This document shows, piece after piece, positions 9,412 through 58,099 of a stretch of 64,000 nt of DNA. Every line of letters starts with the position of its first letter. The first letter of the stretch is position 1. Below the pieces are notes generated by a model. The model did no database searches and was not told where the DNA came from. It saw only the letters and a list, made by a program, of their open reading frames with translations. The DNA comes from Eledone cirrhosa (taxonomy: Eukaryota): NCBI GenBank assembly GCA_964016885.1, contig OZ024742.1, positions 282,968,001 through 283,032,000 on the forward strand. The letters run 5' to 3'. The translations under genes and the position numbers were made by a program.

Positions 9412-9549
9412 AACAAATTTAATATAGAAATGGTTTCTACAAGACTAGAACTGTTTCATTCGAAGGAAATCATCAAGGGTTTTCCTGATGATTTTCTTCA
9501 AATGAAACAGTTCTAGTCTTGTAGAAGCTATTTCTATATTAAATTTGTT
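9412..9549. mobile_element. Short palindromic element with decayed HHR-like core, next to (TA)n
   Basis: Inverted arms of about 65 bp. The right arm reads CTGATGA-TTTTCTTCAAAT-GAAA-CAGTTCTAG-TC. Confidence 0.6.
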
Positions 9550-13639: not shown

Positions 13640-15700
13640 CTGGCACATACCTGAGCTGCATGCACACACCTGTGCTACATGTATACTGACCCATATATAT
13701 ACCTGAGCTACATACATATACATATACAGACACACACACACACCTGTGCTACATGTATAGTGACCCATATATATACCTGAGCTACATACATATACATATA
13801 CAGACACACACACACACCTGTGCTACATGTATACTGACCCATATATATACCTGAGCTACATACATATACATATACAGACACACACACACACCTGTGCTAC
13901 ATGTATACTGACCCATATATATACCTGAGCTACATACATATACATATACAGACACACACACACACCTGTGCTACATGTATACTGACCCATATATATACCT
14001 GAGCTACATACATATACATATACAGACACACACACACACCTGTGCTACATGTATACTGACCCATATATATACCTGAGCTACATACATATACATATACAGA
14101 CACACACACACACCTGTGCTACATGTATACTGACCCATATATATACCTGAGCTACATACATATACATATACAGACACACACACACACCTGTGCTACATGT
14201 ATACTGACCCATATATATACCTGAGCTACATACATATACATATACAGACACACACACACACCTGTGCTACATGTATACTGACCCATATATATACCTGAGC
14301 TACATACATATACATATACAGACACACACACCTGTGCTACATGTATACTGACACATATATATACCTGAGCTACATACATATACATATACACACACACACA
14401 CCTGTGCTGCATGTATAGTGACCCATATATATACCTGAGCTACATACATATACATATACAGACACACACACCTGTGCTGCATGTATACTGACACATATAT
14501 ATACCTGAGCTACATACATATACATATACAGACACACACACCTGTGCTACATGTATACTGACCCATATATATACCTGAGCTACATACATATACATATACA
14601 GACACACACACACACCTGTGCTACATGTATACTGACCCATATATATACCTGAGCTACATACATATACATATACAGACACACACACACACCTGTGCTACAT
14701 GTATACTGACCCATATATATACCTGAGCTACATACATATACATATACAGACACACACACCTGTGCTACATGTATACTGACACATATATATACCTGAGCTA
14801 CATACATATACATATACACACACACACACCTGTGCTGCATGTATAGTGACCCATATATATACCTGAGCTACATACATATACATATACAGACACACACACC
14901 TGTGCTGCATGTATACTGACACATATATATACCTGAGCTACATACATATACATATACAGACACACACACCTGTGCTACATGTATACTGACACATATATAT
15001 ACCTGAGCTACATACATATACATATACACACACACACACCTGTGCTGCATGTATACTGACACATATATATACCTGAGCTACATACATATACATATACAGA
15101 CACACACACCTGTGCTGCATGTATAGTGACCCATATATATACCTGAGCTACATACATATACATATACACACACACACACCTGTGCTGCATGTATACTGAC
15201 ACATATATATACCTGAGCTACATACATATACATATACACACACACACACCTGTGCTGCATGTATAGTGACCCATATATATACCTGAGCTACATACATATA
15301 CATATACACACACACACACCTGTGCTGCATGTATAGTGACCCATATATATACCTGAGCTACATACATATACATATACAGACACACACACCTGTGCTGCAT
15401 GTATACTGACACATATATATACCTGAGCTACATACATATACATATACACACACACACCTGTGCTGCATGTATAGTGACCCATATATATACCTGAGCTACA
15501 TACATATACATATACACACACACACCTGTGCTGCATGTATACTGATACATATATATACCTGAGCTACATACATATACATATACACACACACCTGTGCTGC
15601 ATGTATACTGACACATATATATACCTGAGCTACATACATATACATATACACACACACCTGTGCTGCATGTATACTGATACATATACCTGAGCTGCATACA
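13640..15700. repeat. Minisatellite with a unit of about 70 bp (66-74 bp)
   Basis: About 28 copies of cctgtgct(a/g)catgtata(c/g)tgac(c/a)catatatatacctgagctacatacatatacatataca(g/c)a(ca)n. It decays into cctgagctgcatac units up to about 16050. Confidence 0.95.
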
Positions 15701-16159
15701 TATACATACACACCTGAGCTGCAGACACACACATGTACACACACTTGAGATACATAAACACACATACGTGAGCTGCATACATACACACACACCCACACAC
15801 ACACACACTTGAGCTACATAAATACATATACACACACATACCTGAGCTGCATACACACACACCCCTGAGCTGCATACACACACATATACACACACACACA
15901 TGTACACACATACACATGAGCTACATAAACACACACACCTGAGCTGCATACAAACACACACACACATACCTGAGTTGCATACATACACATATACGCACAC
16001 ACATACCTGAGCTGCATACACACACATGTACACACACTTGAGCTGCATAAACACACACACACACACACACACACACGAGGAGCATACATTCACACATGCC
16101 ATATAAGGTAAAGTTTAACCCTCCTTCTTTCACTCTCTCCCACTCTCCTTTTGGTAGTA

Positions 16160-30255: not shown

Positions 30256-31091
30256 CACTTTGTAATCATGAAGCCCCAGGTTCTAACCCACTGCATGGCT
30301 TCTTGGGCAAGTATCTTTACCATAACCTCAAGTTGACCCAAGCCTTATGAATGAAATGTATAGGTAGACAAATAGTGCTGAAGCTCATTAAATATATTCA
30401 AAACTCCAGCCTTGTCACACACCATGTCATACTGATTCAGTTTATGAACTATGTTAAGAGTGCAGCACATGTCTGTGGTATACTCAACCACTTATATGTT
30501 AATTAACGAGTAAGTAATCCACTTGATTGATGAACAATTAAAAAGTCATTATTGAAGCCTACAGAGGGTTCATCACTTACAATTCTCTCCCACCTTTCGG
30601 TAAATTTACTGTTGGAAACTGGTCCTGCTCCACATCTGCCTTCGTTAATAGGAAGTCTTTACTCTTAGAGTTTTATATGCAATTCTGAAAAACATTTATA
30701 TAGCTGTATCACCACCACCATCATCATTTTTGCATCCACTTTCCATACTACCATAGGTTGGATGATATATATATATATATATATATATATATTGAAACAA
30801 AATGAAAACGAAATTTCATTTCTCACTCTTAGTATGGCACTTACTTAAATGTAAGTATGCATGTATACGTACATACATATATGTATACAGACGTACAGTA
30901 GCATGCACATATATATATATATATATACATATATATATACATATGCATACAGGTACACATACATATATGCACGTATCTGTTTAGCGGCGCTAACGTCGCT
31001 TTGTTCGTTTGTAAACAAACTGAACAGCCTGAATTTATGCCATACGGTGTTAAGGCAACCACGTCACCTTTTTGTTCAACACTGACACAGG

Positions 31092-31136
31092 AACGATGTA
31101 CTAGTTTCAAGCTTGTTAGCTATCATCAGCACCGTT
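31092..31136 (-). ncRNA. Minimal type I hammerhead ribozyme (also at 31560-31604 and 32030-32074)
   Basis: Exact reverse complement of 32698-32742. Confidence 0.88.
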
Positions 31137-32616
31137 TACCCATCTGCCAGATAGTTGAACGTTCGAAAGTATATACTTTCCTTATGAAAATTAACGGCTG
31201 AGCAGCCTAATTTGCATATTGAGTGAGTTAAATCGGTCAGGCATACCGAAAACGATAAATTGAAACAAAATGAAAACGAAATTTCATTTCTCACTCTTAG
31301 TATGGCACTTACTTAAATGTAAGTATGCATGTATACGTACATACATATATGTATACAGACGTACAGTAGCATGCACATATATATATATATATATACATAT
31401 ATATATACATATGCATACAGGTACACATACATATATGCACGTATCTGTTTAGCGGCGCTAACGTCGCTTTGTTCGTTTGTAAACAAACTGAACAGCCTGA
31501 ATTTATGCCATACGGTGTTAAGGCAACCACGTCACCTTTTTGTTCAACACTGACACAGGAACGATGTACTAGTTTCAAGCTTGTTAGCTATCATCAGCAC
31601 CGTTTACCCATCTGCCAGATAGTTGAACGTTCGAAAGTATATACTTTCCTTATGAAAATTAACGGCTGAGCAGCCTAATTTGCATATTGAGTGAGTTAAA
31701 TCGGTCAGGCATACCGAAAACGATAAATTGAAACAAAATGAAAACGAAATTTCATTTCTCACTCTTAGTATGGCACTTACTTAAATGTAAGTATGCATGT
31801 ATACGTACATACATATATGTATACAGACGTACAGTAGCATGCACATATATATATATATATATATACATATATATATACATATGCATACAGGTACACATAC
31901 ATATATGCACGTATCTGTTTAGCGGCGCTAACGTCGCTTTGTTCGTTTGTAAACAAACTGAACAGCCTGAATTTATGCCATACGGTGTTAAGGCAACCAC
32001 GTCACCTTTTTGTTCAACACTGACACAGGAACGATGTACTAGTTTCAAGCTTGTTAGCTATCATCAGCACCGTTTACCCATCTGCCAGATAGTTGAACGT
32101 TCGAAAGTATATACTTTCCTTATGAAAATTAACGGCTGAGCAGCCTAATTTGCATATTGAGTGAGTTAAATCGGTCAGGCATACCGAAAACGATAAATTG
32201 AAACAAAATGAAAACGAAATTTCATTTCTCACTCTTAGTATGATAGCTAACAAGCTTGAAACTAGTACATCGTTCCTGTGTCAGTGTTGAACAAAAAGGT
32301 GACGTGGTTGCCTTAACACCGTATGGCATAAATTCAGGCTGTTCAGTTTGTTTACAAACGAACAAAGCGACGTTAGCGCCGCTAAACAGATACGTGCATA
32401 TATGTATGTGTACCTGTATGCATATGTATATATATATGTATATATATATATATATATGTGCATGCTACTGTACGTCTGTATACATATATGTATGTACGTA
32501 TACATGCATACTTACATTTAAGTAAGTGCCATACTAAGAGTGAGAAATGAAATTTCGTTTTCATTTTGTTTCAATTTATCGTTTTCGGTATGCCTGACCG
32601 ATTTAACTCACTCAAT

Positions 32617-32624
32617 ATGCAAAT
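32617..32624 (+). promoter_or_regulatory. Octamer motif ATGCAAAT, one per 468-bp unit
   Basis: Exact match about 80 bp upstream of the HHR core. Function is inferred only. Confidence 0.35.
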
Positions 32625-32697
32625 TAGGCTGCTCAGCCGTTAATTTTCATAAGGAAAGTATATACTTTCGAACGTTCAACTATCTGGCAGATGGGTA

Positions 32698-32742
32698 AAC
32701 GGTGCTGATGATAGCTAACAAGCTTGAAACTAGTACATCGTT
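32698..32742 (+). ncRNA. Minimal type I hammerhead ribozyme (also starting at 33166, 33634, 34102, 34570, 35038, 35506, 35974)
   Basis: AACGGUG-CUGAUGA-U-AGCU-AACA-AGCU-U-GAAA-CUAG-UA-CAUCGUU. Stem I is 7 bp, the core is intact, stem II is 4 bp, loop III is the palindrome CUAG and the triplet is GUA. Predicted cleavage after 32735. Confidence 0.9.
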
Positions 32743-35700
32743 CCTGTGTCAGTGTTGAACAAAAAGGTGACGTGGTTGCCTTAACACCGTATGGCATAAA
32801 TTCAGGCTGTTCAGTTTGTTTACAAACGAACAAAGCGACGTTAGCGCCGCTAAACAGATACGTGCATATATGTATGTGTACCTGTATGCATATGTATATA
32901 TATATGTATATATATATATATATATGTGCATGCTACTGTACGTCTGTATACATATATGTATGTACGTATACATGCATACTTACATTTAAGTAAGTGCCAT
33001 ACTAAGAGTGAGAAATGAAATTTCGTTTTCATTTTGTTTCAATTTATCGTTTTCGGTATGCCTGACCGATTTAACTCACTCAATATGCAAATTAGGCTGC
33101 TCAGCCGTTAATTTTCATAAGGAAAGTATATACTTTCGAACGTTCAACTATCTGGCAGATGGGTAAACGGTGCTGATGATAGCTAACAAGCTTGAAACTA
33201 GTACATCGTTCCTGTGTCAGTGTTGAACAAAAAGGTGACGTGGTTGCCTTAACACCGTATGGCATAAATTCAGGCTGTTCAGTTTGTTTACAAACGAACA
33301 AAGCGACGTTAGCGCCGCTAAACAGATACGTGCATATATGTATGTGTACCTGTATGCATATGTATATATATATGTATATATATATATATATATGTGCATG
33401 CTACTGTACGTCTGTATACATATATGTATGTACGTATACATGCATACTTACATTTAAGTAAGTGCCATACTAAGAGTGAGAAATGAAATTTCGTTTTCAT
33501 TTTGTTTCAATTTATCGTTTTCGGTATGCCTGACCGATTTAACTCACTCAATATGCAAATTAGGCTGCTCAGCCGTTAATTTTCATAAGGAAAGTATATA
33601 CTTTCGAACGTTCAACTATCTGGCAGATGGGTAAACGGTGCTGATGATAGCTAACAAGCTTGAAACTAGTACATCGTTCCTGTGTCAGTGTTGAACAAAA
33701 AGGTGACGTGGTTGCCTTAACACCGTATGGCATAAATTCAGGCTGTTCAGTTTGTTTACAAACGAACAAAGCGACGTTAGCGCCGCTAAACAGATACGTG
33801 CATATATGTATGTGTACCTGTATGCATATGTATATATATATGTATATATATATATATATATGTGCATGCTACTGTACGTCTGTATACATATATGTATGTA
33901 CGTATACATGCATACTTACATTTAAGTAAGTGCCATACTAAGAGTGAGAAATGAAATTTCGTTTTCATTTTGTTTCAATTTATCGTTTTCGGTATGCCTG
34001 ACCGATTTAACTCACTCAATATGCAAATTAGGCTGCTCAGCCGTTAATTTTCATAAGGAAAGTATATACTTTCGAACGTTCAACTATCTGGCAGATGGGT
34101 AAACGGTGCTGATGATAGCTAACAAGCTTGAAACTAGTACATCGTTCCTGTGTCAGTGTTGAACAAAAAGGTGACGTGGTTGCCTTAACACCGTATGGCA
34201 TAAATTCAGGCTGTTCAGTTTGTTTACAAACGAACAAAGCGACGTTAGCGCCGCTAAACAGATACGTGCATATATGTATGTGTACCTGTATGCATATGTA
34301 TATATATATGTATATATATATATATATATGTGCATGCTACTGTACGTCTGTATACATATATGTATGTACGTATACATGCATACTTACATTTAAGTAAGTG
34401 CCATACTAAGAGTGAGAAATGAAATTTCGTTTTCATTTTGTTTCAATTTATCGTTTTCGGTATGCCTGACCGATTTAACTCACTCAATATGCAAATTAGG
34501 CTGCTCAGCCGTTAATTTTCATAAGGAAAGTATATACTTTCGAACGTTCAACTATCTGGCAGATGGGTAAACGGTGCTGATGATAGCTAACAAGCTTGAA
34601 ACTAGTACATCGTTCCTGTGTCAGTGTTGAACAAAAAGGTGACGTGGTTGCCTTAACACCGTATGGCATAAATTCAGGCTGTTCAGTTTGTTTACAAACG
34701 AACAAAGCGACGTTAGCGCCGCTAAACAGATACGTGCATATATGTATGTGTACCTGTATGCATATGTATATATATATGTATATATATATATATATATGTG
34801 CATGCTACTGTACGTCTGTATACATATATGTATGTACGTATACATGCATACTTACATTTAAGTAAGTGCCATACTAAGAGTGAGAAATGAAATTTCGTTT
34901 TCATTTTGTTTCAATTTATCGTTTTCGGTATGCCTGACCGATTTAACTCACTCAATATGCAAATTAGGCTGCTCAGCCGTTAATTTTCATAAGGAAAGTA
35001 TATACTTTCGAACGTTCAACTATCTGGCAGATGGGTAAACGGTGCTGATGATAGCTAACAAGCTTGAAACTAGTACATCGTTCCTGTGTCAGTGTTGAAC
35101 AAAAAGGTGACGTGGTTGCCTTAACACCGTATGGCATAAATTCAGGCTGTTCAGTTTGTTTACAAACGAACAAAGCGACGTTAGCGCCGCTAAACAGATA
35201 CGTGCATATATGTATGTGTACCTGTATGCATATGTATATATATATGTATATATATATATATATATGTGCATGCTACTGTACGTCTGTATACATATATGTA
35301 TGTACGTATACATGCATACTTACATTTAAGTAAGTGCCATACTAAGAGTGAGAAATGAAATTTCGTTTTCATTTTGTTTCAATTTATCGTTTTCGGTATG
35401 CCTGACCGATTTAACTCACTCAATATGCAAATTAGGCTGCTCAGCCGTTAATTTTCATAAGGAAAGTATATACTTTCGAACGTTCAACTATCTGGCAGAT
35501 GGGTAAACGGTGCTGATGATAGCTAACAAGCTTGAAACTAGTACATCGTTCCTGTGTCAGTGTTGAACAAAAAGGTGACGTGGTTGCCTTAACACCGTAT
35601 GGCATAAATTCAGGCTGTTCAGTTTGTTTACAAACGAACAAAGCGACGTTAGCGCCGCTAAACAGATACGTGCATATATGTATGTGTACCTGTATGCATA

Positions 35701-36259
35701 TGTATATATATATGTATATATATATATATATATGTGCATGCTACTGTACGTCTGTATACATATATGTACGTACGTATACATGCATACTTACATTTAAGTA
35801 AGTGCCATACTAAGAGTGAGAAATGAAATTTCGTTTTCATTTTGTTTCAATTTATCGTTTTCGGTATGCCTGACCGATTTAACTCACTCAATATGCAAAT
35901 TAGGCTGCTCAGCCGTTAATTTTCATAAGGAAAGTATATACTTTCGAACGTTCAACTATCTGGCAGATGGGTAAACGGTGCTGATGATAGCTAACAAGCT
36001 TGAAACTAGTACATCGTTCCTGTGTCAGTGTTGAACAAAAAGGTGACGTGGTTGCCTTAACACCGTATGGCATAAATTCAGGCTGTTCAGTTTGTTTACA
36101 AACGAACAAAGCGACGTTAGCGCCGCTAAACAGATACGTGCATATATGTATGTGTACCTGTATGCATATGTATATATATATGTATATATATATATATATA
36201 TGTGCATGCTACTGTACGTCTGTATACATATATGTATGTACGTATACATGCATACTTAC

Positions 36260-36297
<38 letters not shown>

Positions 36298-39830: not shown

Positions 39831-40021
39831 TAGCAGTTTTTACATGGGAGCAGTCTCTTATAAAATTTATTAATTATATATAGTTATATATATGTGTATT
39901 TATATATATATATATATATATATACATTTTGAGTTTATGTTGGTTGTATACCAACACCTCAGTATGCAGGCTGGAGCACTCGACGAAGTGCGCAGGTTGG
40001 TTTGGTTACTCCGGAGTAGTG

Positions 40022-40447
40022 TAAAATAAAGTTAAATAAAAGTCAAATGATTAAAATTTAGCTTCGTTTATTACTGCTATATATATTTCAGTGACAGCCA
40101 TCTTTGGCTGTGACCTCTTCAGGCAGTTTGAATTAGTATGGTATAGACAAGTACATATGTTGTTTAGGTGTATGATATTGTCAATACTCTGATATGCCCA
40201 GTTCCTTGTTGGGTTGTTAATTCACTGGGGAACTGGTTCCCCAGTGAATTAACAACCCAACAAGGAACTGGGCATATCAGAGTATTGACAATATCATACA
40301 CCTAAACAACATATGTACTTGTCTATACCATACTAATTCAAACTGCCTGAAGAGGTCACAGCCAAAGATGGCTGTCACTGAAATATATATAGCAGTAATA
40401 AACGAAGCTAAATTTTAATCATTTGACTTTTATTTAACTTTATTTTA
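40022..40447. mobile_element. Perfect palindrome (212-bp arms, 2-bp spacer) carrying HHRs; Penelope-like
   Basis: 40022-40233 is the reverse complement of 40236-40447. Tail ggagcactcgacgaag at about 39973; (TA)n on both sides. Confidence 0.92.
40342..40396 (+). ncRNA. Minimal type I hammerhead ribozyme (mirror copy on - strand in left arm)
   Basis: ACUGC-CUGAAGA-GGUC-ACAGCCA-AAGA-UGGCUGU-CACU-GAAA-UAUAUA-UA-GCAGU, then AAUAAA. Predicted cleavage after 40391. Confidence 0.82.
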
Positions 40448-40502
40448 TATATATATACATGTATTTATATATATATATATATACATATGTGTGTGTGTGT
40501 GC

Positions 40503-56423: not shown

Positions 56424-56588
56424 GGTCGGACGCCATGCTTTGCAGCAAAGAGTTACGTCCCTTTACGGACTGAGTTCAAATCCCGTCGAGGTTAGCTTTG
56501 CCTTTCATCCTTACGGGGTCGATAAAATAAAGTACCAGTAATGTACTGGGTAATTGCTAGCCTTGTGCCAAAAGTAGAAACAATTATT
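56424..56588 (+). mobile_element. SINE family A
   Basis: gtcggacgccatgc...gagttcaaatccc...gataaaataaagtaccag...tagaaacaatt. Confidence 0.85.
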
Positions 56589-57850
56589 GCTGTTGTTGAT
56601 GGTTTAACTACTGTTGCTGTTGTTGTGGCTGTTGGTGTTATTGCTGCTGTTCATGGTTTAACTACTGTTGCTGTTGTTGTGGCTGTTGGTGTCATTGCTG
56701 CTGTTGATGGTTTAACTACTGTTGCTGTTGTTGTGGCTGTTGGTGTTATTGCTGCTGTTGATGGTTTAACTACTGTTGCTGTTGTTGTGGCTGTTGGTGT
56801 TATTGCTGCTGTTCATGGTTTAACTACTGTTGCTGTTGTTGTGGCTGTTGGTGTTATTGCTGCTGTTGATGGTTTAACTACTGTTGCTGTTGTTGTGGCT
56901 GTTGGTGTTATTGCTGCTGTTGATGGTTTAACTACTGTTGCTGTTGTTGTGGCTGTTGGTATTATTGCTGCTGTTGATGGTTTAACTACTGTTGCTGTTG
57001 TTGTGGCTGTTGGTGTTATTGCTGCTGTTGATGGTTTAACTACTGTTGCTGTTGTTGTGGCTGTTGGTGTCATTGCTGCTGTTGATGGTTTAACTACTGT
57101 TGCTGTTGTTGTGGCTGTTGGTGTTATTGCTGCTGTTGATGGTTTAACTACTGTTGCTGTTGTTGTGGCTGTTGGTATTATTGCTGCTGTTGATGGTTTA
57201 ACTACTGTTGCTGTTGTTGTGGCTGTTGGTGTTATTGCTGCTGTTCATGGTTTAACTACTGTTGCTGTTGTTGTGGCTGTTGGTGTTATTGCTGCTGTTG
57301 ATGGTTTAACTACTGTTGCTGTTGTTGTGGCTGTTGGTGTTATTGCTGCTGTTGATGGTTTAACAACAGTTGGTGTTCTTGTTGCTGTTGTTGTTGCTGC
57401 TGTTGATGGTTTAACTACTGTTGCTGTTGTTATGGCTGCTGGTATTATTGCTGCTGTTGATGGTTTAACTACTAATGCTGTTGTAACTACTGTTGCTGTT
57501 GTTATGGCTGCTGGTATTATTGCTGCTGTTGCTGTTGTTATGGCTGCAGGTATTACTGTTGCTGCTGGTATTATTGCTGCTGTTGCTGTTCTTCTTCTTG
57601 TTGTTATTGTTGCTGGTATTATTGTTGTTGTTGATGGTTTAACTACTGTCACTGTTCTTGTTACTGTTGTTAGTGCTGCTGTTGATGGTTTAGCTACTGT
57701 TGCTGGTATTATTGCTGCTGTTGATGGTTTAACTACTGTAGCTGTTGTTATGGCTGCTGGTATTACTGCTACTGTTGATGGTTTAACTATTGCTGCTGTT
57801 GGTTTCACTAGTGTTGGTGTTCTTGTTAGTATTGTTGCTACTGTTGGTGT
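56584..57850. repeat. 54-bp minisatellite
   Basis: About 14 regular copies of attgctgctgttgatggtttaactactgttgctgttgttgtggctgttggtgtt, followed by degenerate copies. Confidence 0.92.
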
Positions 57851-58099
57851 TATATTCTTCATTGGTGATTAAAAACAAAATGTAAAGCTGTTCTCTAGGA
57901 AGGAATTCTTTGCTGGTGTTTCTATGCTGATATTTTTGTTGTTTATTTCCATAAAAAAAGAAAAGGAAAATAGCCAATTGTCAGATCAGACGAAAGGAAA
58001 CAATGTTTCTATTGGTCTTTCGATTATTGATATTATCTGTTGATTGCCACAGCCAACAAACAAATGAATATTGGTTGGCATCAAAATTTCTTCATCGTT

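What the first reader, a model, noticed from the sequence alone, without database searches (positions are those of the whole stretch)
32726..33210. Stem III reduced to a palindrome (A-CUAG-U): the ribozyme probably works as a double hammerhead between adjacent units
Seen: between GAAA and the cleavage site the RNA reads ACUAGU, which is self-complementary but too short for a stable intramolecular stem III. Known: minimal HHRs of Penelope-like elements and ASBVd-type hammerheads form dimeric structures through such palindromic loops. Inferred: cleavage would depend on tandem copies, so multimers would be processed while a monomeric circle stays stable.
Basis: partly seen in the sequence, partly recalled or inferred. 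Interest (0 to 1): 0.75.

Follow-up and report, generated by a model that had tools for sequence, protein, structure and literature searches.

The report
Dimer-type hammerhead in retrozyme array
This is one young insertion of a very common non-coding repeat whose hammerhead (self-cutting RNA) motif has a six-base palindrome where a stem should be, so two neighbouring copies likely must pair up to cut well, a trick already known from newts and viroids; cutting has not been tested here.

Summary
Observation confirmed. Each 468-nt unit of an 11.7-copy array (30787-36264) carries a type I hammerhead whose helix III is only GAA-ACUAGU-A. Genome-wide, 38,718 of 39,474 matches to this layout have a self-complementary centre, in all four possible forms (UA, GC, AU, CG), carried by different repeat families. 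Adjacent bases cannot pair within a hairpin, so this points to pairing between copies. Folding puts the double hammerhead 0.9 kcal/mol from the optimum and two single ones 16 kcal/mol higher. Dimer-enhanced cleavage is therefore likely, but strict dependence is doubtful: the motif keeps the extended helix I that lets newt monomers cut, and other hammerheads in this genome are not palindromic. The element is a non-LTR retrozyme of the newt/axolotl type, not a minimal Penelope hammerhead. The mechanism and the stable-circle idea are in print (PMC4209133, PMC7229834). Insertions show a Penelope footprint (back-to-back arms, two fixed ends, TA targets), which this scan already noted on other DNA. 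No RNA data were available. New member of a known kind.

The parts
30787..36264 (.). Whole retrozyme insertion: 11.7 units of 468 nt in two back-to-back arms, both outer ends in (TA)n
30787..32242 (-). Inverted arm, 3.1 units, three complete hammerheads; outer end at unit position about 312 (counted from the cleavage site), carrying the ~59-nt 'tail'
32240..36264 (+). Direct arm, 8.6 units, eight complete hammerheads; outer end at unit position about 253
32240..32242 (.). Junction of the two arms, 3-nt overlap (ATG), inside a truncated hammerhead core
32682..32752 (+). Type I hammerhead with extended, internally looped helix I
32698..32704 (+). Helix I, 5' strand
   Evidence: sequence; covariation
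32705..32711 (+). Catalytic core CUGAUGA
32712..32725 (+). Helix II: U-U mismatch at the base, 3 bp, hexaloop UAACAA (UAAxRA in all 17 aligned rows)
32729..32734 (+). Palindrome ACUAGU in place of helix III; predicted to pair with the same palindrome one unit on
32735..32736 (+). Predicted cleavage site, after GUA
   Evidence: position in the hammerhead consensus; cleavage not tested
32736..33203 (+). One unit, cleavage site to cleavage site (468 nt): predicted monomer RNA, strongly self-paired, ends brought together by helix I
   Evidence: (z -8.2, partly due to an internal TA-rich hairpin)
33173..33210 (+). Next hammerhead (core 33173-33179, palindrome 33197-33202, site after 33203): predicted partner in the double hammerhead

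Best explanation
The array is a young insertion of a non-LTR retrozyme whose type I hammerhead has a palindrome in place of helix III and likely cuts efficiently only as a double hammerhead formed by two copies. Shown: the motif, the array, about 11,800 copies of this family's core, and a palindromic centre in four different forms across families. Inferred: read-through transcription gives multimers; each unit folds back so that its two ends form one helix I, which brings neighbouring hammerheads together; the two ACUAGU strands pair into a shared 6-bp helix III; both sites are cut and 468-nt monomers are released and ligated by a host ligase. A monomer circle would have one hammerhead with no helix III and would cut slowly, not never. 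A Penelope-type enzyme likely copies the circle (or an uncut multimer) from two fixed internal start sites, one on each cut strand of a (TA)n target, giving the back-to-back multi-unit arms.
For: Palindromic centre in 38,718 of 39,474 genome matches: UA 23,585, GC 14,303, AU 742, CG 88, each the norm of a family with its own helix II. No family built on a non-palindromic centre appeared in the first 100 of 233 MM and first 100 of 267 KK matches; these were mostly scattered copies of the palindromic families, and MM and KK (reverse complements) are equally common, as expected for decay after insertion (p=0.14 raw). Two-hammerhead fold: optimum -178.7, double hammerhead -177.8, two singles -161.8 kcal/mol; in 6 of 6 units from three families the double form lies within 0-2.2 of the optimum and 12.6-21.1 below two singles. 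In contigs of two other organisms no change at 32729-32734 reached 1%, while helix I, loop II and H17 positions varied. Precedent: axolotl HHR_Amex1, one pair plus palindromic tetraloop, poor as monomer and much better as dimer (PMC7229834). Insertion anatomy: 122 of 142 sense-3' ends fall in two narrow windows per family, against 3 of 39 5' ends; 51 of 90 complete clusters are head-to-head, 0 tail-to-tail; 46 of 51 use one site per arm, matching the two start sites and 'tail' of a Penelope-like element in vitro (PMC11167929).
Against: No cleavage, transcript or circle was observed. The counts are copies, not events: about five families and at least three double changes carry the signal, and 256 matches (AG, CT, GA, TC) were not listed. 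Wobble-compatible centres are not in excess genome-wide. In the unconstrained ensemble the palindrome pairs between units with probability only about 0.02; most of the 16 kcal/mol gap is the penalty for a forced one-pair hairpin, and the model ignores tertiary contacts and folding during transcription. Newt monomers cut with an extended helix I (PMC6155905 passage). A second hammerhead class here (GAAAGNNCTH, 32,639 matches against 256) is mostly non-palindromic: by eye about 60 GAAC, 15 GGAC and 22 GUAC of the first 100. Eight of nine Xenopus retrozyme dimers did not cut in vitro (10.64898/2026.07.22.740005). No sequence link to a Penelope terminal repeat was found in 35 loci. Some long arrays are mosaics of variants, which a single monomer circle does not explain.
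Confidence: 0.7

Rival explanations
1. The monomer cuts well enough alone: loop I-loop II contacts and the extended helix I hold the core, and the palindrome only speeds cleavage in multimers. Circles are then protected by something else, such as bound protein.
For: Helix I extension and the UA / U internal-loop letters are conserved, as is loop II UAAxRA. Newt monomers cut with such an extension (PMC6155905 passage). Most invertebrate retrozymes cut as monomers (PMC7229834).
Against: Those invertebrate motifs have two pairs plus a tetraloop; this one has one pair, and also a U-U at the base of helix II. Both features mark the two axolotl motifs that cut poorly alone (6% and 22% in an hour). 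A monomer model does not explain why the centre is self-complementary in four forms.
Confidence: 0.17
2. Cleavage is protein-assisted or largely dispensable: the Penelope-type protein copies uncut multimer transcripts, and the palindrome is a relic of a shared ancestor.
For: The anole Penelope-like hammerhead cut only with protein present and was not needed for insertion in vitro (PMC11167929). Only 4 of 142 sense-3' insertion ends lie within 10 nt of the cleavage site. Non-palindromic hammerhead families are abundant in this genome. Mosaic arrays exist.
Against: Core, helices I and II and the palindrome are all kept, with changes on both sides, across divergent families. Four palindromic states need repeated double changes. 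In 9 of 13 family C loci with whole units on both arms, both arms share one unit sequence, as a monomer circle would give (a homogeneous source array would too).
Confidence: 0.1
3. The array is ordinary satellite DNA or an assembly fold-back, and the hammerhead is chance.
For: No Rfam match at gathering score; near-identical units and an inversion.
Against: 39,474 matches against 93; covariation; the same two fixed ends at dozens of unrelated loci; present in runs of other organisms.
Confidence: 0.02

Closest known systems
Amphibian non-LTR retrozymes: newt satellite 2 and axolotl HHR_Amex1/Amex2 (Cervera and de la Pena 2020, PMC7229834; main text parts 1-4 read, supplement not readable)
   Same: Tandem non-coding repeat, low GC, type I hammerhead in every unit; helix III of one pair plus palindromic tetraloop with loop-loop features (Amex1); U-U at the base of helix II (Amex2); self-paired monomer.
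   Different: Unit 468 nt, above the 170-400 nt reported; both weak features in one motif; host is apparently an invertebrate, where the paper finds mostly monomer-active motifs; no RNA evidence here.
Minimal hammerheads of Penelope-like elements (Cervera and de la Pena 2014, PMC4209133, passages; review PMC6765202, passages)
   Same: Palindromic positions 15.2-16.2 and loop 3; dimer proposed; the regulation idea (multimers cut, monomer circles spared) is stated there.
   Different: This motif has a 6-7 bp helix I with a looped extension and a conserved hexaloop II; it lies in a protein-free tandem unit, not in a terminal repeat beside a reading frame.
Double hammerheads of avocado sunblotch viroid and newt RNA (Forster et al. 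1988, seen only as cited in PMC4209133, PMC6155905, PMC6466107 passages)
   Same: Two tandem copies share an elongated helix III.
   Different: Genome-encoded retroelement; hammerhead on one strand only.
Endonuclease-positive Penelope-like insertions (Frangieh et al. 2024, PMC11167929, parts 1-2 read; Craig et al. 10.1101/2021.04.23.441226 and Arkhipova PMC3846280, passages); retrozymes as Penelope derivatives (Li et al. 10.64898/2026.07.22.740005, parts 1-3 read)
   Same: Head-to-head inverted arm, one-ended tail between two internal start sites, AT-rich or (TA)n target.
   Different: No reading frame; both arms often several units long; tail about 59 nt (69 and 26 in two sister families) against 30-40; partner element not identified. 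The Li preprint argues from co-occurrence and homology, and its main text has no occurrence of 'tail'.

Membership tests
Type I hammerhead ribozyme | Core CUGANGA / GAAA / UH with helices I and II | tested here: met
   helix I 100% paired with 5 of 6 pairs changed on both sides in 17 hand-picked rows; helix II base pair missing in 12 of 17
Type I hammerhead ribozyme | Rfam gathering score | tested here: not met
   none; HH9 18.5 of 52 bits
Type I hammerhead ribozyme | Self-cleavage at the UH site | not testable with these tools
   no assay; no RNA run
Double (dimeric) hammerhead | Helix III too short to form alone, with a palindromic loop | tested here: met
   38,718 of 39,474 palindromic
Double (dimeric) hammerhead | Partner copy in the same transcript and a compatible fold | tested here: met
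   tandem array; constrained folds, prediction only
Double (dimeric) hammerhead | Dimer cleaves much faster than monomer | not testable with these tools
   needs in vitro kinetics
Metazoan non-LTR retrozyme | Short tandem units, each with a type I hammerhead, GC under 50%, no coding frame | tested here: met
   the only frames of 110 aa or more touching the array are low-complexity microsatellite readings
Metazoan non-LTR retrozyme | Dispersed insertions at many loci | tested here: met
Metazoan non-LTR retrozyme | Linear and circular monomer RNAs in tissue | not testable with these tools
   no RNA data could be examined
Minimal Penelope hammerhead | Lacks loop-loop features; sits in a terminal repeat beside an RT-endonuclease frame | tested here: not met
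   extended helix I and hexaloop II conserved; no such frame in the window
Element mobilised by Penelope-like machinery | Inverted head-to-head arm, one-ended tail from two fixed start sites, AT-rich target | tested here: met
Element mobilised by Penelope-like machinery | Autonomous partner sharing terminal sequence | tested here: inconclusive
   long RT plus GIY-YIG frames exist but no homology in 35 loci out of 10,595 candidates

The most novel reading that the evidence does not exclude
The palindrome is both a multimer sensor and a compatibility code. Only copies with matching palindromes cut each other, so coexisting families (UA, GC, AU) stay insulated, monomer circles are stable without any blocking strand or protein, and neighbours with mismatched palindromes are released as dimer circles. 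One locus alternates ACAUGU and ACUAGU units strictly (L050), as such a circle would give. The circles are then copied by a Penelope-type dimer from two fixed start sites. This would answer, for one class, the open question of why animal retrozyme circles survive with an unblocked hammerhead.
Probability: 0.3. Interest if true: 0.65.

Novelty: new member of a known kind. Interest (0 to 1): 0.36.

Why it matters
The mechanism is old, so the finding is not surprising in itself. Its value is as a test bed. PMC7229834 leaves open how animal retrozyme circles avoid cutting themselves and which enzyme moves them. This genome offers tens of thousands of young copies in which the palindrome has switched between all four self-complementary forms, natural wobble and mismatched arrays, and insertion ends that mark the likely reverse-transcription start sites to within a few bases. 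It also suggests that dimer-type retrozymes are not confined to amphibians.

Tried and rejected
No RNA holder listed for the unit; the six runs were contigs of unrecorded kind, so say nothing on expression, ends or circles. Wobble test: I expected more G-U-compatible than non-pairing centres; the totals are equal (267 KK, 233 MM; controls 36 and 11), so this gave no support. Two near-homogeneous ACUGGU arrays (L051 all 6 matched motifs, L052 4 of 6) against none for non-pairing centres is too few to count. Periodic non-palindromic copies in L061 and L070-L076 fit multimer templates and later tandem duplication equally. L050 is ambiguous: the plus-arm ACAUGU copy lacks a helix II change carried by the three minus-arm copies. 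LINE-style twin priming on one linear RNA predicts that one arm ends at the other's start site; junction ends were scattered, so this was not supported. A search for longer helix III forms gave 774 matches, mostly family C re-read to a later GT, plus some dispersed copies with three pairs and a tetraloop. No Penelope partner found by DNA similarity. miRNA-family hits over the TA hairpin are far below cut-off and rejected. Papers not held: Lunse 2017, Epstein 1991 and Pabon-Pena 1991; one wrong paper was opened. The supplement of PMC7229834 could not be read and may list relatives of this family. Searches for an octopus retrozyme or hammerhead report found none; the library lacks most subscription journals.

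Full report
Observation. The window holds an array of a 468-nt unit from 30787 to 36264: 3.1 units on the minus strand and 8.6 on the plus strand, joined at a 3-nt overlap at 32240-32242, with (TA)n at both outer ends. Units differ only by one TA step and one substitution among the 10 whole units compared. Each carries a type I hammerhead: helix I AACGGUG/CAUCGUU, core CUGAUGA, helix II with a U-U at its base and loop UAACAA, then GAA-ACUAGU-A and the predicted cut after 32735. Rfam has no match at gathering score and only a weak HH9 match (18.5 of 52 bits). The host is an animal genome of 3.0 Gb; the repeat landscape looks like an octopus to me, which is recalled and untested.

Is the palindrome selected? 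The pattern CTGATGA-N8-20-GAAACNNGTH has 39,474 matches against 93 for the control. The centre is UA in 23,585, GC in 14,303, AU in 742 and CG in 88: 38,718 of 39,474, or 98.1%. Each form is the norm in a family with its own helix II: UA in this family (A, 11,833 exact cores) and in a 466-469-nt family (B); GC in a 310-nt family (C); AU mainly in a dispersed family (D); CG in a family found beside a Penelope-type frame in one locus (E). Two adjacent bases cannot pair inside a hairpin, so a self-complementary centre has a use only between two copies (inference). Of the 756 other matches, 233 are MM and 267 KK (controls 11 and 36). These classes are reverse complements and equally common (p=0.14 raw, 0.71 after subtracting controls), and the first 100 of each are mostly scattered copies of the palindromic families, as decay would give. 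The other 256 (AG, CT, GA, TC) were not listed. The counts are copies; the independent signal is about five families and at least three double changes. In contigs of two other organisms, no change at 32729-32734 reached 1% while positions in helix I, loop II and H17 varied (three of the four runs are one sample).

Structure. An alignment of 17 motifs, hand-picked from 104 distinct ones to cover families A-D and the palindromic and wobble variants, with non-pairing variants left out, shows helix I fully paired with 5 of 6 pairs changed on both sides, a conserved extension beyond an internal loop, and loop II UAAxRA. Related sequences beat shuffles easily, so the two-sided changes, not the shuffle counts, carry the weight. 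This is the canonical animal type I form, not the minimal Penelope form. In a lone motif the one-pair helix III costs 5.4 kcal/mol. In a two-hammerhead stretch the optimum is -178.7, the forced double hammerhead -177.8 and two forced singles -161.8 kcal/mol; without any helix III the crossed and local registers differ by only 1.8. At equilibrium helix I forms in the crossed register (0.48-0.87) and not locally (0.03 or less), because the unit folds back on its own ends, but the palindromes pair with probability only about 0.02. Six of six units from families A-C behave alike. These are nearest-neighbour predictions without tertiary contacts or kinetics. The circle's predicted fold does not bury the hammerhead in a long complementary strand. 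Two closed circles would also have to intertwine to form a dimer, which should disfavour it (inference).

Against strict dependence. Newt and salamander monomers cut when helix I has an internally looped extension that fits loop II (PMC6155905, passage), and this motif has one. A second hammerhead class in the genome (GAAAGNNCTH, 32,639 against 256) is mostly non-palindromic: by eye about 60 GAAC, 15 GGAC and 22 GUAC among the first 100; tandem purine mismatches might still allow a dimer, untested. The anole Penelope-like hammerhead needed protein and was dispensable for insertion in vitro (PMC11167929). Eight of nine Xenopus retrozyme dimers did not cut (10.64898/2026.07.22.740005).

How the arrays arise. 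In 91 clusters from fetched loci (top hits and first-listed places, not a random sample; very long arrays left out), 122 of 142 sense-3' ends fall in two windows per family that cover 2-4% of the unit (A about 253 and 312, B 233 and 302, C 139 and 165; windows drawn after seeing the data), against 3 of 39 5' ends. TA repeats flank 119 of 142 3' ends and 14 of 39 5' ends; 4 of 142 lie within 10 nt of the cleavage site. Of 90 complete clusters 51 are head-to-head and none tail-to-tail; 46 of the 51 use one site per arm and none uses the same site twice. In 24 of 35 younger two-armed inserts both arms exceed one unit. This matches the inverted copy, one-ended tail and (TA)n bias of Penelope-like elements (10.1101/2021.04.23.441226 and PMC3846280, passages) and the two internal start sites with both strands nicked shown in vitro (PMC11167929). 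Frames of up to 1,096 codons with RT and C-terminal GIY-YIG domains exist in the genome, but no shared terminal sequence was found in 35 loci. A circle is the simplest template; an uncut multimer is not excluded, and mosaic long arrays need multimer templates or later duplication.

Comparison and novelty. The closest known motif is axolotl HHR_Amex1, one pair plus a palindromic tetraloop, 6% cleavage as monomer and much better as dimer; Amex2 has the U-U at helix II (PMC7229834, parts 1-4 read). PMC4209133 says that most animal type I motifs have such a short palindromic helix III and states the multimer-versus-circle idea (passages). The retrozyme-Penelope link is argued in a 2026 preprint from co-occurrence and homology (parts 1-3 read). 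Searches for an octopus report found none. I reached the Penelope-footprint reading before looking; earlier notes of this scan report the same footprint for a 310-nt family of this genome and for other genomes (AI notes, not independent support). None of the eight summaries shown describes a test of the palindrome.

Verdict. Real, well supported by comparison, untested at the bench, and a new member of a known kind. Confidence that the dimer is the main active form: 0.7. Interest 0.36.

Noticed in passing
window 39930-40450: Inverted pair of a different hammerhead-like motif (CUGAAGA core, long helix II, palindromic AUAUAU; cores at 40122 minus and 40347 plus) between TA repeats; looks like a Penelope terminal-repeat remnant.
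   Followed up: partly
L050:2188-5184 (G000:C1:319.89 Mb): Family A insertion whose minus arm strictly alternates two unit types, one with ACAUGU and one with ACUAGU; a natural mismatched-palindrome array, one locus only.
   Followed up: partly
L051:2514-5882 (G000:C4:72.71 Mb): Two-armed family B insertion with ACUGGU (wobble-compatible) in all six matched motifs.
   Followed up: partly
L070-L075 (G000:C1:95.63-95.69 Mb): Family B array of more than 100 units with higher-order periods of 4-6 units: a retrozyme turning into satellite DNA.
   Followed up: partly
G000: About 32,600 hammerheads with G15.2-C16.2, mostly with GAAC or GGAC centres that could pair in a dimer only through tandem purine mismatches.
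   Followed up: no
G000, (L077-L080): Family D exists both with palindromic ACAUGU and, in a sister form, with three pairs and a tetraloop: a possible switch between dimer-type and monomer-type helix III.
   Followed up: no
L105-L124: Several young Penelope-type families with RT and C-terminal GIY-YIG, a CxxxxCxxC linker and ends near TA repeats; one family at 96-97% protein identity.
   Followed up: partly
window 9473-9525; L114:7800-8010; L119:3130-3330: Small inverted repeat in TA tracts with a hammerhead-like core but no evident helix I.
   Followed up: no
window 13663-15712: Array of a 70-nt unit, 29 copies at 96% identity.
   Followed up: no
window 56526-57872: Low-complexity repeat open on both strands (Thr/Ala-rich on minus, Val/Ala-rich on plus), possibly a mucin-like exon.
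   Followed up: no
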